From positions 3,051 to 67,050 of the forward strand of contig JALFKC010000055.1 of assembly GCA_022775765.1 (NCBI GenBank): a stretch of DNA of 64,000 bases. The letters are read 5' to 3'. The notes beneath the pieces were generated by a model. It made no database searches. It was given only the letters and a program-made list of their open reading frames with translations, and was not told the origin of the DNA. This DNA comes from Campylobacter sp. Its GTDB lineage: Bacteria; Campylobacterota; Campylobacteria; Campylobacterales; Campylobacteraceae. Below are positions 13,103-29,582 of this stretch, one piece after another (the first letter of the stretch is position 1; every line of letters begins with the position of its first letter). A program made the translations under genes and the position numbers.

Positions 13103-13213
13103 AATTTGCTCCTTAGAATTTTGTGACTATTTTAGCTAATATCTCATTTTAAACTTATCAAATTTTTATATTAATTTTTATTTTTATTTTACCTTTAAAT
13201 ATTGCCTATTTTT

Positions 13214-14305
13214 CTAAATTTCTAATGAAATTTGACTAAATTTAATCCATTTAGTCAAAAATATTTGATATTTTGCTAAATTTAAAAACTTTTTAAATTT
13301 AGCAAATTTTTTTAGCAGTTTTTTGCCATCGCCATATAAATTTGATGAGAAATTTTGATTAAAATCAAAGCTGTGATAAATTTCTACAATCTTATCTCTA
13401 TTTGCACCAGCTAAAGCGTTGTATTTAAGCTCTGTTAGTTCAGTCCATTCGGTTTCATCTCTTAAACTACCGCATTTTAGCAAAAAATATGTCTCTTTTT
13501 GCAATCCGCCACAATCATCTTTAAGTGCTTTATCAACCAAACCATCTTCAAATATCCAACCGACTCAACTATCATAATATTTTTTGAGATATTAATATCT
13601 GAGTTTGAGAGTATGTTTTTGGTGCGTGGATGAATAGGAAGCACTATTTTTATCTCATTTGAAATTAAATTTAGCCCATCAAAAATATCTTTTAGTCTTT
13701 TTAAATTGTCAGTATTTTCAGCTCTGCGGATGGTGCAAAGTAAAAAATTACCGTTTAGATTAAAATCCGGCTTTTTTGCAAATTTAGCATAAAAAATTGC
13801 ACTATCTTGCATAATGTCACCTATATTGTGGATATTTTGTTTGAAATCTGGCGTATTAAAAGCAAAGCCTTCGTTTTGTAAATTTGCTACCACTATAGTA
13901 GCCCGACAAAACAAAATACTGCTAACTCCATCGGTGGCTATTGATCTCTTCAGGCATTTGCATATTAAAGCTTCTTAGCCCAGCCTCAATATGGGCTAAA
14001 TTTATGTGAGCCTTACTAGAGCCCCAGCTAAGGTTGAATTGGTATCTCCATACAACAATAATCGGGCTTTTCTTTGAATACAATCTTTTTAATCTCTATC
14101 ATCATCTCGCCAGTCATAGCAGAGTGAGTTTTGCCCCCAAGACCAAGAAAATAGTTTGGTTTTTGGGATTTTCATCTCATCAAAAAATATATCACTCATA
14201 TTTGCATCATAGTGCTACCTTGTGTGGATTATAATCTCATCAATGCTCTCATCTTTGGCAACTTCTCTGCTTAAATTTCCAGCTTTTATAAACTGCGGTC
14301 TAAGC
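13214..14305 (-). pseudogene. wbpI: UDP-sugar 2-epimerase pseudogene (WbpI/WecB non-hydrolysing family)
   Basis: Motifs spread across frames with stops: RPQFIK, IIHTR*HYDANMSDIFF, GDTNSTLAGAL, AHIEAGLRSFNMQMPEEIN, IRRAENTD, LPIHPRT, GGLQKE, LRDETEWTEL, LYGDG. The extreme N-terminus is missing. Confidence 0.88.
13272..13306. terminator. 35-bp AT-rich palindrome at the end of the glycan cluster
   Basis: TTTGCTAAATTTAAAAA C TTTTTAAATTTAGCAAA. Confidence 0.55.
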
Positions 14306-14317
14306 CTGTGAGTAGTT

Positions 14318-15388
14318 TCATACTAATCTTTTCATAAACTCTACTCTATCTCGCTCTTTTTTTTCGCTATCAAGGTGGTTTAGTGCAAATTTTCTTACTT
14401 CGTCGTTGATTTTAATATCACCAAAAACTCTATTTACAAACTCTTTAATTGTCTCTAAATCCACATTATTAGGTGAATTTGCAAGCTTCAAAGCAAAGCT
14501 CTCATCCCCGCTTAAATCGCTATCATCATACGCATAGATTATAGGTAGCCCACAAGCCAAATACTGCCTTGTCTTAAGTGGACTTGCTTCACTCATCCCT
14601 TTTTTATAAAGGCTAAGGGTGCATATTCCAATGTCGCAGCCACAGATGATTTGGCTAGCTTTTTCATCGCTCATTTTGCCTAAAAATTTAAGATTTTGAG
14701 TGTCATCGCCATCAATTCCAATCATATAAAAATCATATTCCCTTAGCGCATTTGCCATAGAAATTATCTTATCCACGCCGTGCCAACTTTGACCGCTTGA
14801 GCCGATAAATATTAGCCTAGGGCGAGAGTTTTGAGTGGTTTTAAGTGGGTATTTAGCTACGCTTACGCCGTTTGCCATCACACAAAGCGGTCTATTGTAA
14901 CTCTTAAACTCGCTAGCTAATTCAGAGCTTACACATACAAAACCGCTAACTTTTTTGTAGATTAAATTTCTTGTCAAAAGGTTATAATAATACCAAATTT
15001 TACCCCTAAATTTGCTCTCTTTTTTGTCATCACTATTTATCTCCATCACGGTTTTGTTAACGCCTAAGAATTTAGCGAAATTTGGGGTAAAAAATAGATA
15101 TCTAGTATAGATTATGTCAAATTTAAGATTTTTAGTTAGTGCTAAAAGAGTTTTGCTTTTTTGAAAATGCTCTAAAATCCTAGCAATCTTGCCACTACTA
15201 GCCGTTTTTTTGGGAATGCTGCGAATTGTCTTGCCATCAAATTCACGCATTTGCCCTTTTACCAAATCAGCCACGAAAACTTCGCACCCCATAGCTTGCC
15301 AGTGCGAAATTTGCGTACAGATTTTCTTAAAAACTCCAGAATCTTTTTGCGAAATACTTCGCTCATTGATGATATAAAGCACTCTCAA
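14318..15388 (-). CDS. Glycosyltransferase (GT-B, GT4-like)
   Basis: FIGSSGQSWHGVDKI, SPLKTRQYLACGLPII. Confidence 0.85.
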   Translation of the reverse strand: MRVLYIINERSISQKDSGVFKKICTQISHWQAMGCEVFVADLVKGQMREFDGKTIRSIPKKTASSGKIARILEHFQKSKTLLALTKNLKFDIIYTRYLFFTPNFAKFLGVNKTVMEINSDDKKESKFRGKIWYYYNLLTRNLIYKKVSGFVCVSSELASEFKSYNRPLCVMANGVSVAKYPLKTTQNSRPRLIFIGSSGQSWHGVDKIISMANALREYDFYMIGIDGDDTQNLKFLGKMSDEKASQIICGCDIGICTLSLYKKGMSEASPLKTRQYLACGLPIIYAYDDSDLSGDESFALKLANSPNNVDLETIKEFVNRVFGDIKINDEVRKFALNHLDSEKKERDRVEFMKRLV

Positions 15389-16512: not shown

Positions 16513-17720
16513 ATTTTACCTTTTGTTATTATCTTTACAAATTCACTATAATTTTTATCAGCACTATATTTTTCTAAAAAAATCTTGTATGAGTTTTGCC
16601 TTGTATTTTTGTCCTTGAACAATAGCATTTTAGAAAAAGCATTTTTTAGCTCATCAATATTAAAGTTTTGATTTAGCAAGATGCCATTGAATCCGCTTCT
16701 AACCATATCGCTCACACCGCCAATATCTGGGGCAATGATTGGGATTTTAGCACTCATAGCCTCCATTATAGAGACCGGAACGCCCTCTGAAGAGCTAACA
16801 TTTACAAATACATCCACCATATTTTTGTCATAAAAATCAAAAATTTCTGAGTTCTTTAGTTGTCCCAAAAATTTAAACTCTATATCTTTTAGTTTTTGAT
16901 TAGCTAGGGATTTAATCTCGTTTTCAAGCTTGCCACTTCCAATATGAAACCAAGAAATTTTTATATTTTTGTGATTTTTTGCAAACATTTCTAAAGCAAA
17001 TATTAACCTATCAATTTGCTTAACCCTAGAAATACTTGAGCAAGAAACAACTACAAATTCATCCAAATTTGACGGCTTAGTCTCAATTGATTTATCCTTT
17101 ACACCAAGCGGACTAAAAATAATCTGATTTTCTTTAAAACCATAATTTTTAATTAAATACTCTTTTGCTAAGTGCGTTATGATAAAAATTTGATCCAAAT
17201 CTGTATATTGAGATTTAAATGGCATATAAGAAAATGGCTTATTTTCTTTGTAAATATCTTGCCTATGAATTCTACTAACAAGCTTAAAGCCAAATTTATC
17301 TTTCAACTCGCACAAGGCATAAGTCTCTTCTAAATTCCAATATGTATAAAATATATCATCTTTTTTTACATTGTTTTTAATGCAAAATTTATAAAAATTT
17401 TTCTTGTAAAAACAAATTCTCCCAATTGAACGCAATAATATCTTAAATTTAGATAAATTTGAGATATTTTGGGAAGTGATTTCTTTATAAAATTGCACTT
17501 TAAATAGTGATTTTACAAAACATTCACATTTTTGAAAAAATCCATATTTTTGCTTAACAAATAGATTATCAACTTTAATATTTTTGTCTCTTGTGATTAA
17601 AGAAGTAGGAAAAAGCGGTATGAAAATAACTTCTAAATTTTTATAATATTTTACTTCAGTTTCTAAAAACTCTTCGCCTTTTGCATATGGAAAATTGTGT
17701 GTTATTATGAAAATTCTCAT
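16509..17720 (-). CDS. Glycosyltransferase (GT4 family)
   Basis: FPYAKGEEFLETE, SSEGVPVSIMEAMSAKIPIIAPDIGG. Confidence 0.88.
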   Translation of the reverse strand: MRIFIITHNFPYAKGEEFLETEVKYYKNLEVIFIPLFPTSLITRDKNIKVDNLFVKQKYGFFQKCECFVKSLFKVQFYKEITSQNISNLSKFKILLRSIGRICFYKKNFYKFCIKNNVKKDDIFYTYWNLEETYALCELKDKFGFKLVSRIHRQDIYKENKPFSYMPFKSQYTDLDQIFIITHLAKEYLIKNYGFKENQIIFSPLGVKDKSIETKPSNLDEFVVVSCSSISRVKQIDRLIFALEMFAKNHKNIKISWFHIGSGKLENEIKSLANQKLKDIEFKFLGQLKNSEIFDFYDKNMVDVFVNVSSSEGVPVSIMEAMSAKIPIIAPDIGGVSDMVRSGFNGILLNQNFNIDELKNAFSKMLLFKDKNTRQNSYKIFLEKYSADKNYSEFVKIITKGKI

Positions 17721-18970
17721 TTTTTACTAAGCCTTTTTGTATGAAAAAACACTAAAAATATCAATATCAAAAGCAAAATCGCCATCAAATTTGCCATTAC
17801 GCCAAGTGCGTTTAAAAAGCCTAAATCTCGCAAAAAATAGAGCGAACTAAGCGGGACAATCATATAAAAAATAGAAAATATCAAAAGATCTTTTTGCCTA
17901 CCTAAAACGATGAAAATTTGAGATAGCGGCGAAGTAATAAAGTTTAGATAAACCCACGGCGTCATAACTGCTGCTATTTTGCCCGCCACTCTCCACTCAG
18001 CCCCAAATACAAAGGCAAACAAAGGCTCAGCCAAAAAATAAAGACAGGCAAAAATGGGAAGTGCGATTATGGCAAGTTTGATAGTAAAGCTTTTAATTAT
18101 ATTATGAAGATCGCTTTTTTTAGCTACCGCAATCTCTCTAAAAAACACCTGTGAAAACGCACTCCCAATAATTGCTGATGGGGCGTAAATACTTCTATAA
18201 GCTAGTGAAAACTGCCCTAAAAATGCTGTCCCAAAGAGTTTGTTGATGATGAAATTTACCCCTGAGAGCCTAATGGTATCGATGATGGCGTTGGGTAAAT
18301 TTAAGAGTGGGAAATTCTTGTATTTTTTAGCTAGAGCGATGATTTTGAGCCTATTTATATCTTTTAGCTTACTCTTAAATTTAGCCAAAAAAACTCTTAT
18401 AAAATTTGAAGTTGCGATAATTTGAGCACATAAATTTGAGATAATCAGCCCAAAATTTGTAAGGCTCACAAATCCAAAGCCAAGATTTAAAGATGATGAC
18501 GAAAGGCTTTGGACTACGCGGTTAGAACTGATTAATTTATAGTTTTTGTGTCTATTAAACCAGTAATTTAAAGAGTTGTAAATTCCTATCAAAAACACGC
18601 TAAGTGGGGCTAAATAGAGCCAATTTTTGATCTCAGCGTTGCCAAGAAGCCTAGCAATCTCGCCACCAAAAATCGCTATAATCACTAAAAACAAAAAGCT
18701 TATAAAACTCACGCAAATTAGCGATAAAGCCACGACATTAAGGGCGTCGCTGTGCTTTTTGGGAAGCATAATGGCAAGTTCATATCTAGCACTTACTATT
18801 ATTGAAGCTAGACTAACCACACTCAAAAAAAGTGCAAACACACCAAACTCTTCAGGGCTATAAAGACGCGTAAGAATGGGGCTTATCGCAATTGGAATGG
18901 CTTGGGCGATAGTAGTTCCTGTGATGAGAGTTAGGATATTTTTGGTAAATTCACTCTTTATCAAATGCAA
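17717..18970 (-). CDS. wzx: Wzx-family oligosaccharide flippase
   Basis: TGTTIAQAIPIAISPILTRLYSPEEFG and many TM helices. Confidence 0.9.
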   Translation of the reverse strand: MHLIKSEFTKNILTLITGTTIAQAIPIAISPILTRLYSPEEFGVFALFLSVVSLASIIVSARYELAIMLPKKHSDALNVVALSLICVSFISFLFLVIIAIFGGEIARLLGNAEIKNWLYLAPLSVFLIGIYNSLNYWFNRHKNYKLISSNRVVQSLSSSSLNLGFGFVSLTNFGLIISNLCAQIIATSNFIRVFLAKFKSKLKDINRLKIIALAKKYKNFPLLNLPNAIIDTIRLSGVNFIINKLFGTAFLGQFSLAYRSIYAPSAIIGSAFSQVFFREIAVAKKSDLHNIIKSFTIKLAIIALPIFACLYFLAEPLFAFVFGAEWRVAGKIAAVMTPWVYLNFITSPLSQIFIVLGRQKDLLIFSIFYMIVPLSSLYFLRDLGFLNALGVMANLMAILLLILIFLVFFHTKRLSKK

Positions 18971-19083
18971 ACTTTAAAATTTAATCTAGCAATTTAGCTT
19001 TGAATTTGGGATAAATTCCATGGCAGAAATCTCTAAATTTCTCATCAAATCCACCGCATTTTCCGCGACAATTTCTATAAATT

Positions 19084-20619
19084 TCATAAATTCTCAGCCA
19101 CAAACTCTATCTCATCATCACTTAAATATGGATTCATAGGTAGGGATAAAATCTCACTAGAAACTCTCTCGCTAATTGGGAAATCACCTAATTTATAGCC
19201 TAAATATTTAAAGCACTCTTGCAAATGAAGTGGCTTTGGATAGTGGATGGCAGTTGGAATGCCTTTTTCTTTTAGCCTTGCTTGAATAGTGTCTCTATTT
19301 TTCACTCTTATAGAAAACTGTGCGTAAGCTGAGATGGCTCTTTTGTCAATAAAAGGTAAAATCAAATCTTTATCTTTTAAGGCTTCATAGTATTTGCTAG
19401 CAACCTCTCTTCTTAGAGCTAAATCATCTTTGTAATGTCTTAGCTTTACTCTTAAAACCGCAGCTTGAATAGTATCAAGTCTTGCACCAAGGCCGATAAA
19501 TTTATGGTGGTAGCGTCTATCTTGCCCATGAACTCTAAGCTGAGCGATTTTCTCACAAAGCGTTTCATCATTTGTAAAAACTGCTCCGCTATCGCCATAG
19601 CAACCAAGTGGCTTTGATGGGAAAAATGAAGTTGTGCTAATATCGCCAAGCACACTATCTTTTACTCCTTCCCACTGCGAACCAAAGCTTTGAGCACCAT
19701 CGATTATGAGCTTAAGGCTATATTTTTGGCAAATTTCACTAAGAGCGGTTATATTTGCTGGTTGGCCATATAGTGAAACTGCGATGATAGCTTTAGTTTT
19801 TGGTGTGATTTTAGCCTCTATTAAGTTCTCATCAATATTGTAGGTCTGTTCGTTAATATCTACAAATACAGGCGTCGCACCAGCTAAAGCTATGATTTCA
19901 GAGGTTGAAATAAATGTAAATGGTGTGGTTATAACTTCATCGCCCTGCTTTAAACCTAGAGCTATAACCCCAAGCAAGAGTGCGTCTGTGCCGTTACTGC
20001 AAGTTATGCAGTGTTTTGCACCACTATATTCGCAAAGCTCACTCTCTAGGGCTTTAATCTCATCACCCATTATAAAATTTGCCTTGTTTAAAACAGCGTC
20101 TAGGCTTTCTTCAAACTCACTGATGTATCTTGTATGCTGAAGTTTTAAATTTGCAAAGTCGATTTTGGATGGTTTTAGTTTGCCTGTTTTTTCGTCGTAA
20201 TATTCGCTTAGAAAATCCTTTGGTGATACGCAAATTTCAGGGTGTTTATTTAGCAGATTTTCATCTCTTGTTAGAAGTTTTGCATCTATTGCTTTGGCTG
20301 AGGCTAGGATTAGTGAGCTTTCTAAATTGTCAAAATTTATATCAATATAAGATGGGGTTTTGGCGATTTTAAAAAAGCTTAGAATCTCTTTGATGACTTG
20401 ATGAGTGATATTTTTAGCCTTAGAAGTAGTAAAATTAGGATTGTTTCTTTTAATCTCACTAATGCAGATAAACTCAAAATTGTCAATTGAGCTTGAGGAA
20501 ATAAAGATTTCGCCACTGTTTTTTAAAACTTCAAAGCATTTTAGTGAGTGGGGGAATTGCTTGGTTCTAGCGTTTGAATAGATATCAAGTAAAATATTTA
20601 AATCAAATAAAACTTTCAT
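19084..20619 (-). CDS. wbpE: PIN-domain / WbpE (DegT/DnrJ/EryC1/StrS) aminotransferase fusion
   Basis: aa 1-138 PIN-like (MKVLFDLNILLD...LILASA...LLTRD...SPKDFL); aa ~152-511 sugar aminotransferase (SNGTDAL, IDGAQSFG, SFFPSKPLGCYGD, RLDTIQAA, LSLPM). Confidence 0.88.
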   Translation of the reverse strand: MKVLFDLNILLDIYSNARTKQFPHSLKCFEVLKNSGEIFISSSSIDNFEFICISEIKRNNPNFTTSKAKNITHQVIKEILSFFKIAKTPSYIDINFDNLESSLILASAKAIDAKLLTRDENLLNKHPEICVSPKDFLSEYYDEKTGKLKPSKIDFANLKLQHTRYISEFEESLDAVLNKANFIMGDEIKALESELCEYSGAKHCITCSNGTDALLLGVIALGLKQGDEVITTPFTFISTSEIIALAGATPVFVDINEQTYNIDENLIEAKITPKTKAIIAVSLYGQPANITALSEICQKYSLKLIIDGAQSFGSQWEGVKDSVLGDISTTSFFPSKPLGCYGDSGAVFTNDETLCEKIAQLRVHGQDRRYHHKFIGLGARLDTIQAAVLRVKLRHYKDDLALRREVASKYYEALKDKDLILPFIDKRAISAYAQFSIRVKNRDTIQARLKEKGIPTAIHYPKPLHLQECFKYLGYKLGDFPISERVSSEILSLPMNPYLSDDEIEFVAENL

Positions 20620-20837
20620 GAATGCTTCCTTAAAAGATACTCTCCATACTCATTTTTCCACTCATCACCTATATTGCCAATTGAGTTTAAAACTATCTCT
20701 TTAACGTTAGAGACTGTTTTGTTAAATTTAGTGCTATTTTCTTGTATATCCACATCCACCCCATTTAAATTTCCTAAAAACCACAAAATTTTCTCTCTTA
20801 ATTCAGCATTTTCTACTCGTATAACTATCTCGCTCAT
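20616..20837 (-). CDS. Small antitoxin-like protein (73 aa)
   Basis: TAATG overlap with wbpD and ATGA overlap with PIN-wbpE. The C-terminus WKNEYGEYLLRKHS resembles, from recall, small proteins found upstream of PIN toxins (DUF6364-like). Confidence 0.6.
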   Translation of the reverse strand: MSEIVIRVENAELREKILWFLGNLNGVDVDIQENSTKFNKTVSNVKEIVLNSIGNIGDEWKNEYGEYLLRKHS

Positions 20838-21424
20838 TATATTTTCCTTAAATTCTCTCCATCAAGCTTGTATTTTGAAGAGTCATATTGATCTATGGCT
20901 TCTCCATTTTCATCAAATTTTAGAGTATTTCCAGCCACACTTACCCAGCCTATCTGTTTAGCAGGAACTCCCACCATTAAAGCGTGAGACTTTACATCTT
21001 TATTTACAACCGCTCCACTTCCAATTAAGGCGTATTCGCCAATTGTTACCCCACACACGATAGTTGCGTTTGCTCCTATGCTTGAGCCCTTTTTTAGGAT
21101 GGTTTTTTTAAACTCATTGCGGCGAACTATGAAAGCTCTAGGATTGATAACATTTGTAAAAACCATACTAGGACCCAAAAACACATCATCTTCTATCTCA
21201 ACGCCTTCATAAATACTAATATTGTTTTGAACTTTTACACCATTTCCAACCCTTACATTTGGTCCAACTACGCAGTTTTGTCCAAAAGAGCAGTTTTTGC
21301 CAATATTTGAGCCTTTTAGGATATGGCAAAAGTGCCAAATTTTAGTATTATCACCGATAGTTACCCCATCATCTACAAACGAACTTTCATGAGCGAAATA
21401 TCCCATCAAAGCACCCTTTTGCAA
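20837..21424 (-). CDS. wbpD: UDP-3-amino-sugar N-acetyltransferase (hexapeptide repeat)
   Basis: [51 protein letters not shown]. Confidence 0.9.
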
Positions 21425-22368
21425 AACTCATGGTATTCACCCTTAAGTGGTGAAATCTCAGCGTTTCTAACGCTTGAGACGATATTTATAGAGTTTCTTG
21501 CCTCGTCAAGCCCAAAGCCTTCGCCATTTAGGATTTTTTCGTAACTTCTAGTGTGAAGATCAAAAAATCCACCACTAAACTCTATCTCTTCACCATCAAC
21601 TGTTATACTTCTATAAGTTCTTTGACCCTTTGCTTTGATCTCATCAGGGATATAATCATAATTTACACTCAAAAACCATCTAACCCTAGCGTGAGCTAGC
21701 TCTAAATATCCAGCGTTTGCGTCAGGTTTTTTAAGATGAACTATGTTTTGTTTAACGGGACCAAATATCCAAGTTATCATATCAAAAAAATGCACCCCTA
21801 TATTTGTAGCGATTCCGCCACTTTTGCTCTCATCGCCTTTCCATGAGATAAAATACCACTTTCCGCGACTTGTAAGGTAGGTTAAATCTATATCATAGAT
21901 TTTATTTGGATTAGCCTTTAACTCATCTTCAACTCTTTTTTTAAGTGCGATAATATTTTCGTGAAGTCTTAGTTGGAGTATATTATAAACCTTTTTGCTA
22001 GTTTGATTTTCTAAGCTTTTGAGTTGCTCTATGTTGTGTGGGTTTAATACTAGAGGTTTTTCACATATTGCGTCAGCCCCATTTCTAAGTGCACACCTAA
22101 TATGTGCGTCGTGTAGATAGTTTGGGGTGGTTACAGAGATAAAATCAACCTTATCTTTTGTAAGAGAGAGTTTATAAAGGTGTCTATCAAATCTCTCAAA
22201 TTCAGTAAAAAAGCTAGCATTTGGAAAAAAGCTATCCATTATGCCAACACTATCACTTTTATCTAACGCACAGACCATCTCATTATTTGTTTCTTTTATA
22301 GCTTTTAGGTGGCGTGGGGCGATATATCCACCAACTCCAATTATTGCGAAATTCATTATAACCTCCAA
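21406..22368 (-). CDS. wbpB: UDP-GlcNAcA 3-dehydrogenase (Gfo/Idh/MocA family)
   Basis: [36 protein letters not shown]. Confidence 0.92.
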
Positions 22369-23612
22369 GTAGGATTATCAATAATCCCTTTTATATCTAT
22401 TATTATATCTGAAAGATTGTTAAACTCATCCATAGAGTGCTTTTTAAACTCATCGTGAGCTACGGCCACTATAACTGCGTCGTAAGCTTTGCCTGCTTTA
22501 AATGGGTCTTTGATAAGGCCGTGCTTGTAGTCTTTTTTCTCTTCATTTGGATCAACCCACGGATCATAAACATCTACATTTATCTCAAATTTCTTAAGCT
22601 CTTCAATGATATCAATGACTTTGGTGTTTCTCATATCAGGGCAGTTTTCTTTAAAAGTAAGCCCAAGCATTAAAACATTTGAGTTTCTTATAAGGACATC
22701 GTTTTTTATCATTAATTTGACTGTTTTTTCGGCGATATATTTTGCCATAGAGTTGTTGATATGTCTTGCATTAAGGATTAAATTTGGCTTGTAGCCTAGC
22801 TCTTCAGCCTTATAGGTTAGATAGTAAGGATCAACGCCTATGCAGTGTCCGCCTACAAGACCTGGTTTTAGCTTGATAAAGTTCCACTTTGTAGCAGCAG
22901 CTTCAATGACTTCATTGGTATCAATCCCCATCGTATCAAATATCAAAGCTAGTTCGTTGATAAGAGCGATATTGACATCTCTTTGGGTATTTTCTATGAC
23001 CTTGCTAGCTTCGGCTACTTTTATGCTACTAGCTCTAAAAGTTCCAGCTGTTATTATGCTTTTGTAAAGTTCATCAACTTCATCGGCGATTTTTGGTGTG
23101 CTTCCACTTGTTACTTTTAGAATTTTGCTTACTGTGTGGGTTTTATCCCCTGGATTTATTCTCTCAGGTGAGTATCCACAAAAAAAGTCTTTGTTAAACT
23201 TAAGCCCTGAGGTCTCTTCAAGGCAAGGCACACAAATCTCTTCTGTTACGCCTGGATAAACAGTGCTTTCATAGATGACGATATCACCAATACTAAGCAC
23301 CTTGCCTATACTTTGGCTTGATTTAATAAGCGGGGTAAGATCGGGCTTATTTTTAGAATCTATCGGGGTTGGGACGGTTACAATGAAGATATTTGCCTTT
23401 TGAAGCTCATTTAGATCGGTTGTGTATAAAACATCTATCTCTTTTAGTTGATTGCCATCAAGCTCTAAGGTTCTATCGTAGCCGTTTTTTAGCTCATCAA
23501 TTCTAGTAGGGTTTATATCGTAGCCTATTGTTTGGTATTTTTTAGCAAATGCGTGAAGAAGTGGCATTCCTACATAGCCAAGTCCTATAATTGCGATAAT
23601 TTTATCTTTCAT
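22356..23612 (-). CDS. UDP-N-acetylhexosamine C6 dehydrogenase (WbpA/WbpO/TviB family)
   Basis: GLGYVG, ESTVYPG, SPERINPGD, KVIENTQRD, GLVGGHCIGVDPYYL, FKENCPD. Confidence 0.93.
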   Translation of the reverse strand: MKDKIIAIIGLGYVGMPLLHAFAKKYQTIGYDINPTRIDELKNGYDRTLELDGNQLKEIDVLYTTDLNELQKANIFIVTVPTPIDSKNKPDLTPLIKSSQSIGKVLSIGDIVIYESTVYPGVTEEICVPCLEETSGLKFNKDFFCGYSPERINPGDKTHTVSKILKVTSGSTPKIADEVDELYKSIITAGTFRASSIKVAEASKVIENTQRDVNIALINELALIFDTMGIDTNEVIEAAATKWNFIKLKPGLVGGHCIGVDPYYLTYKAEELGYKPNLILNARHINNSMAKYIAEKTVKLMIKNDVLIRNSNVLMLGLTFKENCPDMRNTKVIDIIEELKKFEINVDVYDPWVDPNEEKKDYKHGLIKDPFKAGKAYDAVIVAVAHDEFKKHSMDEFNNLSDIIIDIKGIIDNPTWRL

Positions 23613-23806: not shown

Positions 23807-25252
23807 TTATTTACTAAATGGGGATTTTGACATATTTGGCTGAATTGTGACATTTGAGTCTATTAGCTCTTTTTGTTCATCTAGCTTAATCTCAAATCCA
23901 CCACCAAACGCTTTATAGACATTGACGACACTATTTAGGGTTTGTTGTTTGGCTTGAGAGTATCTAAGCCTTGCGTCAAGTAGTCCTCTTTGAGCGTCAA
24001 GTAGATCTATAAACTCACTATATCCAGCGTTGTATCTACTTGAAGCGTTGGTATAAAGTCTCTGGGCTGATTTAAGCAAATCAGCAGTTCTAGTCTCTCT
24101 TTGCATAGAGTATTTTCTAGCATCAAGAGCATTTCTAACATCAGTAAATGCGTCTTTTAACGCCTTATCATAAGAGATAAATGAGGCGTTTTGATCTAAA
24201 TTTGCTATTTCAACTCTTCTAGAGGTTCTACCAAAGTCAATCAAAGGGCCAGCTAAAGATCCAACGATATTCCACGAATTGCTTATGCTATCAAATAGAT
24301 CAGAAAACTCTCCACTTTGATATCCCAAAACTCCTGTCAAAGAAAACGATGGGAAATAATCGGCCTTAGTTGCACCTACTAGGTAGTTAGTGGCCCTTAG
24401 GTTTTCAAGTGCTCTACCAACATCGGGGCGTTTTAAAAGCACATCTGAAGGCACACCATTTGGCACTACAGGCACTTTAATCTCTGATTTGGTAACCATC
24501 ATCTCTTTGTAAAGTAGATCATTATAATCACTTCCACTCATATTTAAAAGTGCGTTATTGACTTGAGAAATCTGATCTGTAACTTCAACTAAATTTACCT
24601 TAGCTCTTTGAAGCTCTACATCTGTTTGATTAACTGCTACATTATCGATCACACCTGCGTTATACTGTCTTTGTCTATAGCTTAGGCTATTTTGATAGCT
24701 TTTGACTGTCTCTTTTAGGATAGCTTGTTGCTCAATTAAAAATTTAAGCTGAAAATATGCGGTTACAGCGTTGCTAATAAGACTGAGTTTAACAGCTTCA
24801 TAGTCATAAATTCCAGCATTTAGCCTTGAAGTATTGGCTGCGATAGTGTTTGCTATCTTGCCCCAAACATCAAGCTCATAGTTAAGTGCTAAATTTGCAG
24901 AATAGACTGAATTTGAGGCTGAATTTGGTGCAGTAGGGAAGTTATTTTGCCTACCTGCGTCAAAGCCATAAGTTATATTTGGCAAGTGCGAGAGCTTGCT
25001 AAGTCCTAAAGTCGCTCTAAGAATTTCAATATTATTTAAAGCAAGTTGTAAATCTGAGTTGTTTTTAAGCACATCCATTACAAGCTTATTTAAGTTGCTA
25101 TCGTTAAAATCCATCCACCACTTATCACTAATGCTTACGCCCGTTAAATTTGCATCAAATGTAGTGTCCCTTACTGGGGTTGTTGGTTTAAACGAACAAC
25201 CTGTCAGTAAGAGTAAAGCTCCAAAACCTGCTATTAAAGTTTTTTTCATCAT
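23807..25252 (-). CDS. cmeC: RND efflux outer-membrane channel lipoprotein (TolC/NodT family)
   Basis: Lipobox LLTGC, YELDVWG, RPDV, YFPSFSL, LIDFGR, YKAFGGG; follows cmeB. Confidence 0.92.
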   Translation of the reverse strand: MMKKTLIAGFGALLLLTGCSFKPTTPVRDTTFDANLTGVSISDKWWMDFNDSNLNKLVMDVLKNNSDLQLALNNIEILRATLGLSKLSHLPNITYGFDAGRQNNFPTAPNSASNSVYSANLALNYELDVWGKIANTIAANTSRLNAGIYDYEAVKLSLISNAVTAYFQLKFLIEQQAILKETVKSYQNSLSYRQRQYNAGVIDNVAVNQTDVELQRAKVNLVEVTDQISQVNNALLNMSGSDYNDLLYKEMMVTKSEIKVPVVPNGVPSDVLLKRPDVGRALENLRATNYLVGATKADYFPSFSLTGVLGYQSGEFSDLFDSISNSWNIVGSLAGPLIDFGRTSRRVEIANLDQNASFISYDKALKDAFTDVRNALDARKYSMQRETRTADLLKSAQRLYTNASSRYNAGYSEFIDLLDAQRGLLDARLRYSQAKQQTLNSVVNVYKAFGGGFEIKLDEQKELIDSNVTIQPNMSKSPFSK

Positions 25253-28200
25253 TGTATCTCCCTACCTTGTGCTACGACTATTTCTGTGGCTTGTTTCTCA
25301 TCATTTTTACTTTTTTTGCTTGATTTTAGCCAAGTGCTAAATTTCTCAAGCAGATAGTAAAATAGTGGTACAAAAAATATCGCAACAGTAGAAGCAAATA
25401 TCATACCGCCAACAACACCAGTTCCAAGTGAGTGCCTACTTGCTGCACCTGCTCCGGTGCTTATCACCATAGGGAAAACCCCCAAAGTAAACGCAATAGA
25501 AGTCATAACTATCGGTCTAAATCTAAGCCTTGCAGCATTAACCGCAGCCTCAAATATGGTCTCATCTTTTGCTCTTTCTGCCATCGCAAACTCAACAATC
25601 AAAATAGCATTTTTAGCTGCCAAACCAATAAGAAGCACAAGTCCTATTTGGAAATAAACATCACTACTTAATCCCCTTAACCAAGTAAATAGTGCTGATC
25701 CTAGAACCGAAAATGGCACCGCTGTTAAAACAGCTACTGGCATTAGCCATCTTTCGTATTGAGCTGCTAGAATTAAATAGACAAATATTAGACCAAATAC
25801 AAAAGCTATAGCACCAGTTCCGCTAGCTTGAACCTCTTGATAGGCTGAACCTGTCCAGCCGATATTGTATTCGCTGCCAAATGTTTCATGCATAACTTCA
25901 CTCATAGCTTTGATAGAATCTCCTGAAGTGTATCCAGGGGCTGGCTCACCAAGAATCTTAGCCGCTGGGAAACCATTAAATCTATCAAGAGAATCAGCAC
26001 CCAAGGTTTTTTTTAGACTGACGATTGAATTTAATGGAACAAGTTCGCCATATGAGCTCTTTACAAACATCTTCTTAAGATCGCTTGGCTGACCTCTATC
26101 ATTAGCTTCAGCTCTTAGATAAACTTTATAAGTTTTACCAAGTAAGTTAAAGTCATTGACATAATATCCTGCAATATTAGCATTCAATACATCAAATATA
26201 TCATCTATATCAATTCCAAGCATTTTTGCTTTGTCTTCATCAACTTTTAGATCATACTGTGGAAATCTCGTATCAAGAGTTGTTCTAACCATAGTAAGTT
26301 CTGGTCTTTGATTTGCTATAGCGGCAACTTTTTCCATATCAGCTTGAATATCGTGAAAGCTTTTGCCGGTTCTGTTTTCAGCAAAAAACTCAAAACCACC
26401 TGTTGTAGATAGACCCATAATTGGTGGTGGGTTGGTTACGAAAGTAAGAGACTCTCTATCTGGGGCTAGGGCCGCATTGTATCTAGCTGCCATATCAAAA
26501 GTTGAAGTTCCCTCTCCTGTTCTTAGTGACCAATCTTTTGCCTTAATAAATCCAATAGAAGCATTTTCTCTCAAAGAGCCTGATAATATGTCATAACCTG
26601 CCATAATTGCTATCATCTCAACATTTTCATCTTGCAAGACCATTTGGGCAATTTTGTTGGTATTATCTATAGTTCTTTGAAGTGAAGCTGCTGATGGAAG
26701 AGTAGTTATTACCATAACCGCACCCTTATCTTCATCTGGGACAAGCCCGCCAGGCAGTGTTTTTAGAAGTGTAAATGCTGAAAAAACTAAAATTCCAACT
26801 ACTACCAAAGATGGTATAACATGTCTTAAAATTTTAGCAACACCTGCAGTGAATATTCCTGTGCACCAGTCAAAAAAGTCGTTAAATTTCTTAACAAACC
26901 ACCATTTTTCTTTTCTCTCTTTTTTTAGAAGTGTGATACAAAGTGCAGGAGTTAGTGTTAGGGCAACAAATCCTGATATTATAACCGAAACAACAAGTGT
27001 TAGTGCAAATTGCTTTTGGATAATTCCTACAAAGCCTTCCATAAATGAAACTGGCACAAAAACCGCTGACAAAACAAGCACTATCGAAACAACAGGGGCA
27101 AAAATTTCACTCATTGCTTTTTCAGTTGCTTGCTTGACCGTGAGTTCGGGCTCTTCTTCTAGGATACGCTCCACATTTTCTATAACAATAATCGCATCAT
27201 CCACAACAATACCGATTGCCAAAATTAAGGCAAACAGCGTAATTGAGTTAATACTAAAGCCCATCAGATACATACCTGCAAACGCACCGACAATTGATAC
27301 TGGCACTGCAAGCATCGGTATAATAGTAGCTCTAAGATCCCCTAGGAATAGATACATAACTATACAAACAAGAACTAGTGCCTCAAAAAAAGTTTTGGCA
27401 ACTTCTTTGACATTTTCATTGATAAAGTCTGTAATATCATAAGGAACTTGATATTCTAGCCCTTCAGGGAAAGTCTCAGCAATTTGAGCTATCCTAGCCT
27501 TTACAGCTTCAGATGTAGCTAGAGCGTTTGCACCATTTTGCATAAATACAAGCACTGGTGCCATATCATATCCATTAATGGATCCTGTAAATACATCTTT
27601 TTCACCATCTAATTTAACTTCAGCTACATCTTTTATCCTTAAGGTTGAGCCATTTGGATTGGTAGCTATGATGATATTTTCAAACTCCTCAATCGTCACA
27701 AGCCTTCCTTTTGGATTGACTGAAAATACAAAAGCATTGTCTCCAGCTGTTGGCCTTTCGCCAAATTTACCAACTGCATATTGGCTATTTTGTTCTCTTA
27801 TCACCGAGATAATTTCAGGGACGGTTATGCCGTGTCTTATAAGCTTGTCAGGCTGTAGATATACTTTCATAGAGTAGCTTTTGTTACCTATCAAAACAGC
27901 TTGGCCAACGCCATCGACTCTTTTTAGTTCATCTTCAACATTTATCTTTATGTAGTTGTTAAGTTCAACTGTCCCCATAGAACCACTTTTATCATAAAAA
28001 GCAACGACTTGCAAAATACTTGGACTTCTCTCAAAAATATTAAGTCCGTATCTTCTAACCTCTTCAGGCAAAAGTGGCTCTGCAGTTTTTACTTTATTGT
28101 TAACATTAACTAGTGCGGTTTGAGGGTCTGTGCCTACCTTAAAAGTAACGGTTAAAGTAAGCTCACCAGATGAACTTGAGCTAGATTGCATATAGATCAT

Positions 28201-28425
28201 ATCCTCAACGCCATTTATCGCCTCTTCTAGTGGTGCAGCAACAGTATCGGCGATGGTTTGAGCTGAAGCTCCTGGATAGCTAGCTGAAACTATAATCTCA
28301 GGCGGGGTGAGTTGTGGATAATCCTCTACTGGCAAAACCTTCATACACACTAGCCCTGCTATCACTATGATTATAGACATAACCATAGCAGCTATTGGTC
28401 TGTTGATTGAAAATTTAGCAAACAT
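25249..28425 (-). CDS. cmeB: RND multidrug efflux transporter (HAE1)
   Basis: GIVVDDAIIVIENVER, ALTLTPALC, GLAAKNAILIVEFA, RFRPIVMTS. Confidence 0.95.
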   Translation of the reverse strand: MFAKFSINRPIAAMVMSIIIVIAGLVCMKVLPVEDYPQLTPPEIIVSASYPGASAQTIADTVAAPLEEAINGVEDMIYMQSSSSSSGELTLTVTFKVGTDPQTALVNVNNKVKTAEPLLPEEVRRYGLNIFERSPSILQVVAFYDKSGSMGTVELNNYIKINVEDELKRVDGVGQAVLIGNKSYSMKVYLQPDKLIRHGITVPEIISVIREQNSQYAVGKFGERPTAGDNAFVFSVNPKGRLVTIEEFENIIIATNPNGSTLRIKDVAEVKLDGEKDVFTGSINGYDMAPVLVFMQNGANALATSEAVKARIAQIAETFPEGLEYQVPYDITDFINENVKEVAKTFFEALVLVCIVMYLFLGDLRATIIPMLAVPVSIVGAFAGMYLMGFSINSITLFALILAIGIVVDDAIIVIENVERILEEEPELTVKQATEKAMSEIFAPVVSIVLVLSAVFVPVSFMEGFVGIIQKQFALTLVVSVIISGFVALTLTPALCITLLKKERKEKWWFVKKFNDFFDWCTGIFTAGVAKILRHVIPSLVVVGILVFSAFTLLKTLPGGLVPDEDKGAVMVITTLPSAASLQRTIDNTNKIAQMVLQDENVEMIAIMAGYDILSGSLRENASIGFIKAKDWSLRTGEGTSTFDMAARYNAALAPDRESLTFVTNPPPIMGLSTTGGFEFFAENRTGKSFHDIQADMEKVAAIANQRPELTMVRTTLDTRFPQYDLKVDEDKAKMLGIDIDDIFDVLNANIAGYYVNDFNLLGKTYKVYLRAEANDRGQPSDLKKMFVKSSYGELVPLNSIVSLKKTLGADSLDRFNGFPAAKILGEPAPGYTSGDSIKAMSEVMHETFGSEYNIGWTGSAYQEVQASGTGAIAFVFGLIFVYLILAAQYERWLMPVAVLTAVPFSVLGSALFTWLRGLSSDVYFQIGLVLLIGLAAKNAILIVEFAMAERAKDETIFEAAVNAARLRFRPIVMTSIAFTLGVFPMVISTGAGAASRHSLGTGVVGGMIFASTVAIFFVPLFYYLLEKFSTWLKSSKKSKNDEKQATEIVVAQGREIQ

Positions 28426-29582
28426 TATTTACTCTCCGAAACTTTTTGTGCTGGGGCACCTACTCTGATTTTTTGGAAATTATCAAGTATTAGTTCATCG
28501 CCATCGTTTAAGCCTTCGCTAATTACAACATATTCTGGTCTTTCATATACTATCTTAACATCAGCTTGTCTTACTATGCCATCTTTTAAGATATAAACAA
28601 ATGGTTGAACCAATCCTTGTTGGACAGATGATGATGGAATTTTAAATGCATTCTTTTGATATACACCTCTAAGCACTACAGTTGAGAATGTTCCTGGCGT
28701 CATCTTGCCTTCTTTATTAGGAAATTCAGCCTTTGCATCTACGCTACCTGTGCGAGCATTTATAACCTCATCTACAAAAACCAAGGTTCCATTGTAATCA
28801 ACACCATTATAATTAGTCGTTACATACATTTTGCCATCGTTCCAAGTTCCATTTGCAATATTTCTTGTAATCTGCAAATGCTCTGTATCAGCTATAGCAA
28901 ACTCAGCATCTATTGGATCAAGTCTAGTAAGTCTTATAAGGCTTGGGTCTTGTAAATTTATATAGCTACCCACATCTTTTAGTTTATCGCCAACTACACC
29001 ATCAAACGGGGCAGTTACAACTGTATAGCCAAGATCAAGTGCTGCGTCTTCGAGCTTTGCTTCAGCTGAAGCTAAATTCGCTTTTGACATAGCATAAGCT
29101 GAAGTTGTAGCGTCGTATTCTTTTTGGCTGATTGCACGAGATTTTCTAAGTTTTGTAGCTCTTGTAAAGTCTCTTTTGGTTTTGTTGATATCAGCTATAG
29201 CAGTATCAACGCCAGCTTTTGCCATATTGTAAGCAGCTTGATATTTATCAGGGTCTATCAAAAATAGCTTATCTCCAGCTTTGACAAAATCCCCAGCCTT
29301 AACATACTGTTCCATCAAAGTTCCAGCTACTTTAGCCACAACTATAATATCTTGTCTGCTGTTAAGCTTTGCAGGAAATTGCAAAGCAACTTCAACATCT
29401 TCTTGCTTCACATTCATAGTGCTAACCCTTGGTGCTTGAGGTTTATTTGCAGAAGTACCATTAGCCTTGCTGGCTATTTTGCTCTCATCTACAAATTTAA
29501 GAAGCAAATTATCTATTTTATCGCATCCACTAAGCAAAAAAGCAAGTGAAACCGATATAATAATAGAGTATATCTTATTCAT
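28425..29582 (-). CDS. cmeA: RND periplasmic adaptor lipoprotein
   Basis: Lipobox LLSGC, lipoyl/hairpin motifs (LFLIDP, VTAPFDG), PGTF. Confidence 0.93.
   Translation of the reverse strand: MNKIYSIIISVSLAFLLSGCDKIDNLLLKFVDESKIASKANGTSANKPQAPRVSTMNVKQEDVEVALQFPAKLNSRQDIIVVAKVAGTLMEQYVKAGDFVKAGDKLFLIDPDKYQAAYNMAKAGVDTAIADINKTKRDFTRATKLRKSRAISQKEYDATTSAYAMSKANLASAEAKLEDAALDLGYTVVTAPFDGVVGDKLKDVGSYINLQDPSLIRLTRLDPIDAEFAIADTEHLQITRNIANGTWNDGKMYVTTNYNGVDYNGTLVFVDEVINARTGSVDAKAEFPNKEGKMTPGTFSTVVLRGVYQKNAFKIPSSSVQQGLVQPFVYILKDGIVRQADVKIVYERPEYVVISEGLNDGDELILDNFQKIRVGAPAQKVSESK

What the first reader, a model, noticed from the sequence alone, without database searches (positions are those of the whole stretch)
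19084..20837. Toxin-antitoxin-like module fused into a glycan pathway: antitoxin-like ORF plus PIN-WbpE aminotransferase fusion
Seen in sequence: the wbpE ORF is 511 aa. Its first ~138 aa (MKVLFDLNILLD...NLESSLILASA...LLTRDENLL...SPKDFL) precede a normal-length (~360 aa) aminotransferase, and there is no Met at the junction (KPSKIDF). A 73-aa ORF sits between wbpD and this fusion, coupled on both sides (TAATG and ATGA overlaps). Established: D-x-N-x-x-x-D at the start and TRD near the end are PIN/VapC hallmarks; a small upstream gene coupled to a PIN gene is the VapBC layout; WbpB-WbpE-WbpD make UDP-GlcNAc(3NAc)A. Inference: a VapBC-type pair has been integrated into the operon, so the aminotransferase is made only as a PIN fusion. 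This could make the cell addicted to the glycan locus, couple PLP or UDP-sugar flux to RNase activity, or repurpose a dead PIN as an autoregulatory domain. The usual DxEDA segment reads NLESS here, so the nuclease may be degenerate.
Basis: partly seen in the sequence, partly recalled or inferred. Interest (0 to 1): 0.88.

Follow-up and report, generated by a model that had tools for sequence, protein, structure and literature searches.

The report
Disarmed PIN toxin fused to WbpE
A toxin-type nuclease domain (PIN) and its small antitoxin-like partner gene really are built into this surface-sugar operon, with the PIN domain joined in frame to the WbpE aminotransferase; the design recurs in many bacterial lineages and I found no description of it, but this copy has lost three key acidic residues and looks disarmed.

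Summary
ORF 19084-20619 (-) is one 511-aa protein with a 142-aa N-terminal domain, a 10-aa linker and a complete WbpE. A 73-aa ORF overlaps both neighbours (TAATG, ATGA). Pig-gut metagenome contigs reproduce the junction without indels.

The N-domain has a PIN/VapC fold (AF2 pLDDT 95; top Foldseek hits are nearly all PIN/VapC). The fusion is not local. I found 97 protein clusters and 46 genomic loci, in Campylobacterota, Aquificota, Methylococcales, Chromatiales, Zetaproteobacteria and others.

Nearly every locus has a homologous small ORF coupled upstream. It has a conserved C-terminus and interchangeable N-terminal modules, as antitoxins do. All 33 loci with an intact acidic site keep it. 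Of 7 degenerate loci, 3 have lost or pseudogenised it.

The window is an intermediate. Family-conserved D95, D98 and D101 read N, N and S here. Its small ORF is the most diverged intact member.

No other species of 36 sampled in the genus has the PIN. One carries a plain wbpB-wbpD-wbpE-wzx "empty site".

Best reading: a VapBC-derived cassette welded to WbpE, catalytically disarmed here. The PIN is kept because WbpE has no start codon of its own. Toxicity, neutralisation and biological role are untested. I found no description in the literature.

The parts
20616..20837 (-). 73-aa antitoxin-like small ORF, a diverged member of the family of small ORFs found upstream of PIN-DegT fusions
   Evidence: ORF. 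It scores 21.1 bits against an HMM of the upstream small ORFs of other loci, against 12.2 for the best of 2000 shuffles. Full-length alignment. AF2 alone gives helix 11-22, a low-confidence linker at 31-44 and C-terminal helices at 45-53 and 59-72. No Pfam, NCBIfam or PADLOC family.
20194..20619 (-). PIN (VapC-fold, PIN_3-related) domain, residues 1-142 of the fusion
   Evidence: AF2 pLDDT 95.1, pTM 0.88. The top Foldseek PDB hits are nearly all PIN/VapC proteins, prob 1.00, TM 0.53-0.69. 24 of 34 family members hit PF13470. hhalign to a free-standing PIN_3 toxin (L049) gives 94% probability.
20317..20337 (-). Degenerate acidic cluster, residues 95-101 (N-F-D-N-L-E-S; family consensus D-Y-D-D-I-E-D)
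   Evidence: Column counts over 97 homologues: D95 89/97, D98 91/97, E100 97/97, D101 91/97. The window has N, N, E, S, with codons AAT, AAT, AGC. The same D..D.ED pattern is present in the free-standing PIN_3 toxin L049.
20164..20193 (-). Linker, residues 143-152 (EKTGKLKPSK), variable in the family, with no start codon
   Evidence: These alignment columns are mostly gaps or variable in homologues. No in-frame ATG, GTG or TTG between codons 2 and 183.
19084..20163 (-). WbpE-type sugar aminotransferase half (residues 153-511 plus stop)
   Evidence: PF01041 E 1.4e-108. Aligns with P. aeruginosa WbpE 3NU7 residues 2-353 at E 4.5e-111, including the SFFPSKPLGCYGD motif. It is the only WbpE-type gene in the genome; other DegT paralogues are at most 33% identical.
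20837..21424 (-). wbpD-like hexapeptide N-acetyltransferase, immediately upstream; its stop overlaps the small ORF's start
   Evidence: Hexapep E 2e-23. The same gene precedes the small ORF in most related loci.
21406..22368 (-). wbpB-like GFO/IDH/MocA oxidoreductase
   Evidence: PF01408 and PF02894.
22356..23612 (-). wbpA-like UDP-sugar 6-dehydrogenase, first gene of the run
   Evidence: The three UDPG_MGDP_dh domains.
17717..18970 (-). Wzx-type polysaccharide flippase downstream of the fusion
   Evidence: Polysacc_synt_3 E 2.7e-28. It has the same position in the PIN-less locus of a congener.

Best explanation
This is a two-gene cassette of type II toxin-antitoxin (VapBC, PIN_3 branch) ancestry that has been welded onto a sugar aminotransferase. 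A small antitoxin-like protein is translated first. Translationally coupled to it is one polypeptide in which a PIN domain replaces the initiator Met of WbpE. In the family at large the PIN metal-binding acidic site is under strong purifying selection and the small partner is retained wherever that site is intact. So the ancestral unit most likely works as a toxin/antitoxin pair: an RNase domain held in check by the C-terminal helices of the small protein (inferred, not shown). In this window the cassette arrived by horizontal transfer together with a wbp-type glycan locus and has since been disarmed. Three conserved Asp of the 95-101 cluster are now N, N and S, including D101, which I judge the likely counterpart of the catalytic D98 of Shigella VapC. 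The rest of the domain signature is intact. The small ORF is still open and coupled but is the most diverged member of its family. The PIN domain persists because it carries the only start codon and ribosome-binding site for WbpE. WbpE is the genome's sole enzyme of that type, so the cell makes a ~57 kDa PIN-WbpE whose working half is the aminotransferase.
For: Shown here:
- PIN fold.
- Complete WbpE with the PLP-Lys motif.
- No internal start codon and no second wbpE in the genome.
- 97 fusion clusters and 46 loci across phyla.
- An exhaustive phmmer search of 1.84 billion representatives returns mostly fusions or fragments of them, and no clear close free-standing relative.
- Near-invariant D6, N8, D12, R18, D46, N47, AKTPSY, D95, D98, E100, D101, S102, T117-R118-D119.
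- The window departs non-conservatively from about 31 positions that are at least 90% conserved at only three, all acidic and all in residues 95-101. The chance of that is about 0.001-0.012 by simple combinatorics.
- A small ORF is coupled upstream in nearly every locus, with a conserved C-terminus and swapped N-terminal modules.
- 33 of 33 loci with an intact site keep the small ORF. Of 7 degenerate loci, 4 keep it, 1 has a pseudogene and 2 lack it (Fisher p about 0.0035).
- The window's small ORF scores 21 bits, against 55-117 bits for the others.
- A free-standing PIN_3 plus RHH-like pair aligns to the family with the acidic cluster conserved.
- A congener has the empty site wbpB-wbpD-wbpE(361 aa, MKIDFANL...)-wzx, and 0 of 36 congeners have the PIN.
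Against: - No biochemical evidence exists for nuclease activity, toxicity or neutralisation in any member.
- The mapping of D101 onto the canonical third catalytic Asp rests on the motif pattern and a profile alignment to one free-standing PIN_3 protein. It is not a residue-level structural superposition. hhalign to Shigella VapC aligned only the N-terminal 42 residues (3.5% probability).
- D6, D12, D46, E100 and D119 survive in the window, so residual metal binding or activity cannot be excluded.
- Four loci with a mutated D101 or D119 still keep a well-conserved small ORF, so partner retention is not strictly tied to these residues.
- Overall, the window's PIN half is not unusually diverged relative to its DegT half (rank 35 of 129).
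- The small protein has no recognisable DNA-binding fold.
- The co-loss statistic ignores phylogenetic non-independence.
Confidence: 0.6

Rival explanations
1. The window's cassette is still a live toxin-antitoxin pair. The remaining acidic residues (D6, D12, D46, E100, D119) suffice for metal-dependent RNA cleavage, and the diverged 73-aa protein still neutralises it. It could then serve to addict the cell to the glycan locus or to arrest growth when operon expression stops.
For: The small ORF is intact, translationally coupled at both ends and homologous over its full length. Five of eight conserved acidic positions remain. The rest of the PIN signature is intact and the fold is predicted with high confidence. 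The few population SNPs in the PIN half are synonymous.
Against: D101 is probably the counterpart of the residue whose D98N substitution was used to crystallise Shigella VapC (PDB 5ECD appears among the hits; that this mutant is inactive is my recollection). The window has S there, plus N at two neighbouring conserved Asp. The window copy is the only one of 34 tested that matches no PIN HMM at E<=0.01. The partner has lost the conserved Y..NWR and DR motifs.
Confidence: 0.15
2. The PIN domain and small protein were never primarily a toxin/antitoxin in this fused family. Instead they form a regulatory or scaffolding module. For example, a small-protein/PIN complex could repress the operon, sense nucleotide-sugar state, or tether DegT enzymes to partner enzymes.
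For: The PIN of this clade is found essentially only fused to DegT enzymes. It is always inside sugar-nucleotide operons, usually after a wbpD-like acetyltransferase. The module has been recombined onto at least two DegT subtypes at least 7 times. That suggests a generic service to DegT enzymes. VapBC complexes are known autorepressors (general knowledge).
Against: A scaffold does not need near-invariant acidic metal-site residues shared with free-standing PIN_3 toxins. Loss or pseudogenisation of the small gene only where that site has decayed is the pattern expected of an antidote, not of a co-scaffold. No DNA-binding fold was detected in the small protein.
Confidence: 0.2
3. The fusion is an artefact: a sequencing or assembly frameshift, or a recent pseudogenising mutation that joined a separate vapC to wbpE.
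For: None found beyond the unusual length.
Against: Identical junctions appear in independent assemblies and metagenomes with no indels. The same in-frame architecture occurs in 97 clusters and 46 loci. No start codon is available for a separate WbpE.
Confidence: 0.02

Closest known systems
VapBC type II toxin-antitoxin modules, PIN_3 (PF13470) branch (structural neighbours: PAE0151 2FE1, M. tuberculosis TA complex 7VWO, Shigella VapC 5ECD/5ECW, R. felis VapBC2 3ZVK, FitAB 2BSQ)
   Same: Same PIN fold. Family members match PF13470 or PF01850. The acidic residue set is shared with a free-standing PIN_3 toxin. A small upstream gene overlaps the toxin start. The partner has a variable N-terminal module and a conserved C-terminal part. 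The partner is lost only after the toxin site decays.
   Different: The toxin is not a separate ~130-aa protein; it is the N-terminal domain of a 500-570-aa metabolic enzyme. The cassette sits inside a biosynthetic operon rather than standing alone. The partner matches no known antitoxin family. In this window three conserved Asp are gone.
PhoH2 / PIN-PhoH fusions (PIN domain fused to a PhoH ATPase; some have a small upstream partner)
   Same: It is a precedent for a VapC-type PIN domain permanently fused at the N-terminus of a larger enzyme. Matelska et al. 2017 (PMC5499597) note PIN fused with PhoH. The small-partner detail is my recollection and was not checked here.
   Different: The fused partner there is an RNA-acting ATPase that cooperates with the nuclease. 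Here it is a PLP-dependent nucleotide-sugar aminotransferase with no known RNA link.
Pseudomonas aeruginosa WbpE (UDP-2-acetamido-2-deoxy-3-oxo-D-glucuronate aminotransferase; PDB 3NU7/3NYS)
   Same: Residues 153-510 align with WbpE 2-353 at E 4.5e-111, including the PLP-lysine motif. The wbpA/wbpB/wbpD-like neighbours are present.
   Different: WbpE is a stand-alone 359-aa protein. A congener of this organism also has the stand-alone form directly after wbpD. Here the initiator Met is replaced by 152 residues of PIN plus linker.

Membership tests
PIN domain superfamily (VapC-like, PIN_3/PF13470) | PIN fold (three-layer alpha/beta/alpha with a parallel sheet) | tested here: met
   AF2 model pLDDT 95.1 with strand/helix order b1-a-a-a-b2-a-a-b3-a-b4-a-b5-a. 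The top Foldseek PDB hits are nearly all PIN/VapC, prob 1.00, TM 0.53-0.69.
PIN domain superfamily (VapC-like, PIN_3/PF13470) | Match to the Pfam PIN or PIN_3 profile at its threshold | tested here: not met
   The window copy gives only PF01850 at E 0.044, 14.8 bits against a 23.6-bit cut-off, over residues 102-122, and nothing at E<=0.01. By contrast, 24 of 34 homologues match PF13470 (best 3.8e-9) and 12 match PF01850.
PIN domain superfamily (VapC-like, PIN_3/PF13470) | Complete set of conserved active-site acidic residues | tested here: not met
   The family has D6, D46, D95, D98, E100, D101 and D119, conserved in 89-97 of 97 homologues. The window has N95, N98 and S101. These positions are also D/D/E/D in a free-standing PIN_3 toxin. 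The window copy is therefore filed as PIN-derived, not as a functional VapC.
PIN domain superfamily (VapC-like, PIN_3/PF13470) | Mg2+/Mn2+-dependent ribonuclease activity | not testable with these tools
   Needs purified protein and RNA cleavage assays.
Type II toxin-antitoxin module (VapBC layout) | Small gene immediately upstream of the toxin, overlapping or translationally coupled, co-occurring across genomes | tested here: met
   ATGA overlap in the window. A homologous small ORF lies within -10 to +42 nt of the PIN start in 37 of 40 loci with enough upstream sequence.
Type II toxin-antitoxin module (VapBC layout) | Antitoxin binds and neutralises the toxin | not testable with these tools
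Unpaired rows were misaligned by MAFFT. Indirect support only: the partner is lost or pseudogenised only where the PIN site is degenerate.
Type II toxin-antitoxin module (VapBC layout) | Antitoxin carries a recognised DNA-binding domain (AbrB/SpoVT, RHH, Phd/YefM, HTH) | tested here: inconclusive
   No Pfam hit for 10 small ORFs at E<=10. AF2 of the window's small protein gives pLDDT 71 and pTM 0.37. Foldseek returns nothing below E=7. The 'MYAIEFEADIQNGMIKIP...' variants look like AbrB/DUF104 by eye only.
Type II toxin-antitoxin module (VapBC layout) | Toxin is an autonomous protein whose only role is growth arrest | tested here: not met
   The PIN is fused in frame to a complete WbpE in all but fragmentary relatives.
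WbpE-type DegT aminotransferase | Full-length DegT/DnrJ/EryC1 domain with the PLP-binding lysine motif and closest similarity to WbpE | tested here: met
   PF01041 E 1.4e-108. The best PDB hit is WbpE 3NU7 at E 4.5e-111 over 355 residues, with SFFPSKPLGCYGD conserved.
WbpE-type DegT aminotransferase | Operon context with WbpA/WbpB/WbpD-type enzymes | tested here: met
   UDP-sugar dehydrogenase, GFO/IDH/MocA oxidoreductase and hexapeptide acetyltransferase lie directly upstream on the same strand with overlapping ends.
WbpE-type DegT aminotransferase | Transamination of UDP-3-keto-GlcNAcA | not testable with these tools
   Needs an enzyme assay (coupled WbpB/WbpE reaction).

The most novel reading that the evidence does not exclude
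The PIN-DegT fusion and its small partner may be a surveillance or addiction device for surface-glycan loci. The stable enzyme-tethered RNase would be restrained only while the operon keeps producing the labile small protein. Shut-off, replacement or deletion of the glycan locus (for example phage-induced host shut-off or recombinational serotype switching) would then unleash RNA cleavage. The window would be a lineage caught midway through disarming such a device after horizontal acquisition, with the dead PIN and small ORF possibly re-used for translational coupling or autoregulation of WbpE.
Probability: 0.15. Interest if true: 0.8.

Novelty: new variant of a known kind. Interest (0 to 1): 0.56.

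Why it matters
Toxin-antitoxin modules are normally autonomous two-gene units. Here the toxin fold is a permanent domain of a housekeeping-type glycan enzyme, conserved across several phyla together with its antidote-like partner. Full-text searches found no paper describing it, and the PIN classification paper does not mention a DegT fusion. If the canonical members are active, this links RNA cleavage to expression of surface-polysaccharide operons, which are the main targets of phages and of recombinational serotype switching. It would also be a clean natural series for studying how a cell disarms an acquired toxin: intact pairs, point-mutated sites with the partner retained (this window), pseudogenised partners (L033), and partner-less dead domains (L024, L035). 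On the practical side, annotation pipelines label these proteins simply 'DegT/DnrJ/EryC1/StrS family aminotransferase', which hides the extra domain.

Tried and rejected
- Co-folding the small protein with the PIN domain. I built an in-frame read-through of the window with a custom code (CATT=H, CATG=M) and a paired alignment.
- Unpaired rows were not usable, because MAFFT stacks the small ORFs on the PIN part, even with a naturally in-frame L015 read-through as an anchor.
- Sequence-level links to solved PINs: phmmer and profile hmmsearch against the PDB found nothing relevant. hhalign to Shigella VapC (sequence from memory) aligned only residues 1-47, at 3.5% probability.
- Pfam, NCBIfam and PADLOC on the small ORFs and the PIN domain gave no family.
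- Foldseek on the low-confidence small-protein model gave no match.
- Test for accelerated evolution of the window's PIN half relative to its DegT half: not an outlier (rank 35 of 129). The 'relaxed constraint on the whole domain' idea was therefore dropped in favour of site-specific loss.
- The promoter/terminator scan was no better than shuffles. No internal promoter is claimed.
- The RNA runs hold only 4-7% of the words and were not pursued.
- The fetch of an annotated region on a GenBank accession outside the held collections failed.
Full report
**Anatomy**

On the minus strand the window carries a tightly packed run of genes:
- a wbpA-like UDP-sugar dehydrogenase (22356-23612);
- a wbpB-like oxidoreductase (21406-22368);
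- a wbpD-like hexapeptide acetyltransferase (20837-21424);
- a 73-aa ORF (20616-20837);
- a 511-aa ORF (19084-20619);
- a Wzx-type flippase (17717-18970) and three glycosyltransferase-sized ORFs.

The small ORF's ATG shares one base with the wbpD stop (TAATG). Its TGA overlaps the ATG of the 511-aa ORF (ATGA). Both starts have AAGGAA 6-7 nt upstream.

Residues 153-510 of the long ORF align end to end with P. aeruginosa WbpE (PDB 3NU7, E 4.5e-111), including the SFFPSKPLGCYGD lysine motif. The WbpE part therefore begins at the position of WbpE residue 2. It is preceded by 142 residues of extra domain and a 10-residue linker. There is no in-frame ATG, GTG or TTG between codons 1 and 184. The genome has no second WbpE-type gene. 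WbpE activity must therefore come from the fusion protein.

**Is it real?**

Two independent Logan contigs are 99.7% identical, have no gaps, and carry the same junction and the same residues. Contigs from four pig-gut metagenome runs cover 18900-21500 with SNPs only and no indels. The PIN-half SNP and the one next to the linker are synonymous.

**What the N-terminal domain is**

Pfam barely sees it in the window copy (PIN, E 0.044, residues 102-122 only). With an alignment of 34 homologues, AlphaFold2 gives a very confident model (pLDDT 95.1, pTM 0.88). Its best PDB neighbours are nearly all PIN/VapC proteins: PAE0151, an M. tuberculosis TA complex (7VWO), Shigella VapC, R. felis VapBC2 and FitB, at prob 1.00 and TM 0.53-0.69. 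The top hit is the Cas9-associated protein PcrIIC1. Of the 34 homologues, 24 match PF13470 (PIN_3) and 12 match PF01850 at E<=0.01. The window copy is the only one examined individually, and it matches neither.

A free-standing 142-aa PIN_3 protein from another family of the same order has an overlapping RHH-like upstream gene. It aligns to the family profile over its whole length (hhalign 94%, E 1.4e-7), and D6, D12, D95, D98, E100, D101 and D119 are all conserved in it. The domain therefore descends from PIN_3-type VapC toxins.

**How widespread**

A word-indexed search restricted to residues 1-155 found 97 protein clusters of 303-611 aa, nearly all about 500-570 aa. All carry DegT domains and are 38-57% identical in the PIN part. 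An exhaustive phmmer search of 1.84 billion representatives found only 44 hits. Inspection shows most are fusions or truncated or frameshifted pieces of fusions, and I saw no clear close free-standing relative.

A genome scan returned 46 loci. They come from Campylobacterota (Sulfurimonas, Sulfurovum, Arcobacteraceae, Campylobacteraceae), Aquificota (Hydrogenothermaceae, Desulfurobacteriaceae, Sulfurihydrogenibium), Methylococcales, Chromatiaceae (including cultured Thiohalocapsa marina DSM 19078), Zetaproteobacteria and others.

On a PIN tree, two DegT subtypes (WbpE-like 'IDFANLK...' and an 'IPFLDLK...NSGWY' type) need at least 7 changes even counting only well-supported branches. The PIN module has therefore been recombined onto different aminotransferase bodies repeatedly.

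Within the window's own genus, none of 36 other species has the PIN. One congener has wbpB-wbpD-wbpE(361 aa, 'MKIDFANL...')-wzx with a 3-nt gap between wbpD and wbpE. This is an exact 'empty site'. The window's locus is thus a horizontally acquired variant.

**The small ORF**

In nearly every locus with upstream sequence, an ORF of 69-107 aa ends within a few bases of the PIN start. Most follow a wbpD-like gene. These ORFs are homologous to one another and to the window's 73-aa ORF. The window's ORF scores 21.1 bits against their HMM, against 12.2 for the best of 2000 shuffles, and aligns from end to end.

The family has a conserved C-terminal half (..DEYIEKNWREL....YK.DRG.YL.EKYK or ..EAAWEFYNEKHS). 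It has at least three interchangeable N-terminal modules ('MQLIVNIKNESLA.KII..L', 'MYAIEFEADIQNGMIKIP..KHVKVIAL', 'KVKAKRVKDGFLIPL'). This is the modular build typical of type II antitoxins, although no Pfam family or fold match was obtained.

Modelled alone, the window's small protein has a moderately confident N-terminal element (helix 11-22). It also has a low-confidence linker (31-44) and two C-terminal helices.

**Coupled decay**

I classed each locus by whether D6, E100, D101 and D119 are all acidic.
- All 33 intact loci keep the small ORF, scoring 55-117 bits.
- Of 7 degenerate loci, 4 keep it.
- One (L033, Candidatus Endobugula) has it broken by in-frame stops.
- Two (L024, L035) have no room for it.

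These results are; Fisher p is about 0.0035. The test is not phylogenetically corrected.

**Where the window sits**

Across 97 homologues, about 31 PIN positions are at least 90% conserved. The window departs non-conservatively at only three: D95N, D98N and D101S (codons AAT, AAT, AGC). All three are acidic and all lie in one helix-cap cluster. Chance would give this with a probability of about 0.001-0.012.

From the D..IA.A-type motif and the profile alignment to the free-standing PIN_3 toxin, I infer that D101 is the counterpart of the third catalytic Asp of VapC. That is the position mutated (D98N) in the Shigella VapC crystal form that appears among the hits.

The window's small ORF is the most diverged intact member. 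It has lost the Y..NWR and DR motifs. The PIN half as a whole is not unusually diverged relative to the DegT half. The change is therefore site-specific, not wholesale decay.

A wecB/wbpI-type 2-epimerase next to the locus is a multiply frameshifted pseudogene, also present in the metagenome contigs. So parts of this acquired locus are decaying.

**Mechanism proposed**

Shown: a single PIN-linker-WbpE polypeptide, a conserved coupled partner gene, a conserved acidic pocket in the family, and loss of three pocket residues here.

Inferred: in canonical members the PIN is an RNase held in check by the partner's C-terminal helices. In the window the nuclease is disarmed. The domain survives because it supplies WbpE's only translation start, and perhaps folding or dimer contacts.

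Unknown: why a toxin module should be tied to DegT enzymes. Options include locus addiction, a response to shut-off of glycan operons, and autoregulation.

**Comparison and novelty**

The nearest known systems are VapBC modules of the PIN_3 branch. PIN-PhoH (PhoH2) fusions are a precedent for an enzyme-tethered PIN. Full-text searches found no paper that mentions PIN with WbpE or DegT fusions. Public annotations call these proteins plain DegT-family aminotransferases. I rate it a new variant of a known kind.

Several earlier notes of this scan describe the same architecture in other genomes. That lowers the surprise of this instance. The specific contribution here is the disarmed-but-partnered intermediate and the empty-site comparison.

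Noticed in passing
window 13220-14320 (-): A wecB/wbpI-type UDP-GlcNAc 2-epimerase is a pseudogene split over all three frames by several frameshifts. Surviving fragments include 'LLLYGDTNSTLAGAL', 'AHIEAGLRSFNMQMPEEIN' and 'GGLQKETYFLLKCGSLRDETEWTEL'. Pig-gut metagenome contigs reproduce it with no gaps apart from a 2-nt deletion polymorphism at 13319. The glycan locus is partly decaying, and its end product may lack the 2-epimerisation step.
   Followed up: partly
window 13142-13233: Many 31-mer metagenome contigs at very high depth (word depth 36-240, against about 5 for the flanks) match 13161-13191 with 2 mismatches. This looks like a short sequence that is highly repeated or shared by abundant organisms in pig gut. 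Not identified.
   Followed up: no
L033 5750-6000 (Candidatus Endobugula MAG): The small-partner gene upstream of the PIN-DegT fusion is a pseudogene. Recognisable N- and C-terminal halves ('..NWKDLLMNCQSDPYYYSSDKYKENRGVYLMGKC') are interrupted by in-frame stops. The PIN site there reads V46, T47, G101, N119.
   Followed up: yes
L011 5444-5992 (Methyloprofundus MAG chromosome): Two small-partner genes lie in tandem upstream of the fusion. One is an AbrB-like 'MYAIEFEADISNGMIKIP' type that appears to be split into two ORFs. It is followed by an intact 'MKLTVDIPDESVA' type. This suggests replacement of one antitoxin-like module by another.
   Followed up: no
proteins P0124 and P0105: P0124 reads as a wbpD-like acetyltransferase fused in frame to the C-terminal half of the PIN and then to DegT; the small ORF and PIN residues 1 to about 76 are deleted. 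P0105 is a PIN joined to only the last ~60 residues of DegT. These may be further routes of cassette decay, or assembly chimeras.
   Followed up: no
L049 1489-2179 (-) (a genome of the same order); own genome contig C81:1401-1760 (-): Free-standing PIN_3 genes. L049 has an overlapping 89-aa upstream gene with weak RHH/CcdA similarity, which is a canonical VapBC-like pair. The window's own genome has one PIN_3 ORF of 137 aa elsewhere (30.6 bits, above the cut-off).
   Followed up: partly
window 23807-29582 (-): Directly upstream of the glycan run lies an RND efflux operon. It comprises an outer-membrane factor (481 aa), an AcrB/CmeB-like pump (1058 aa) and a 385-aa ORF in the position of the membrane-fusion protein, with overlapping ends. 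This is judged from length and sequence by eye only.
   Followed up: no
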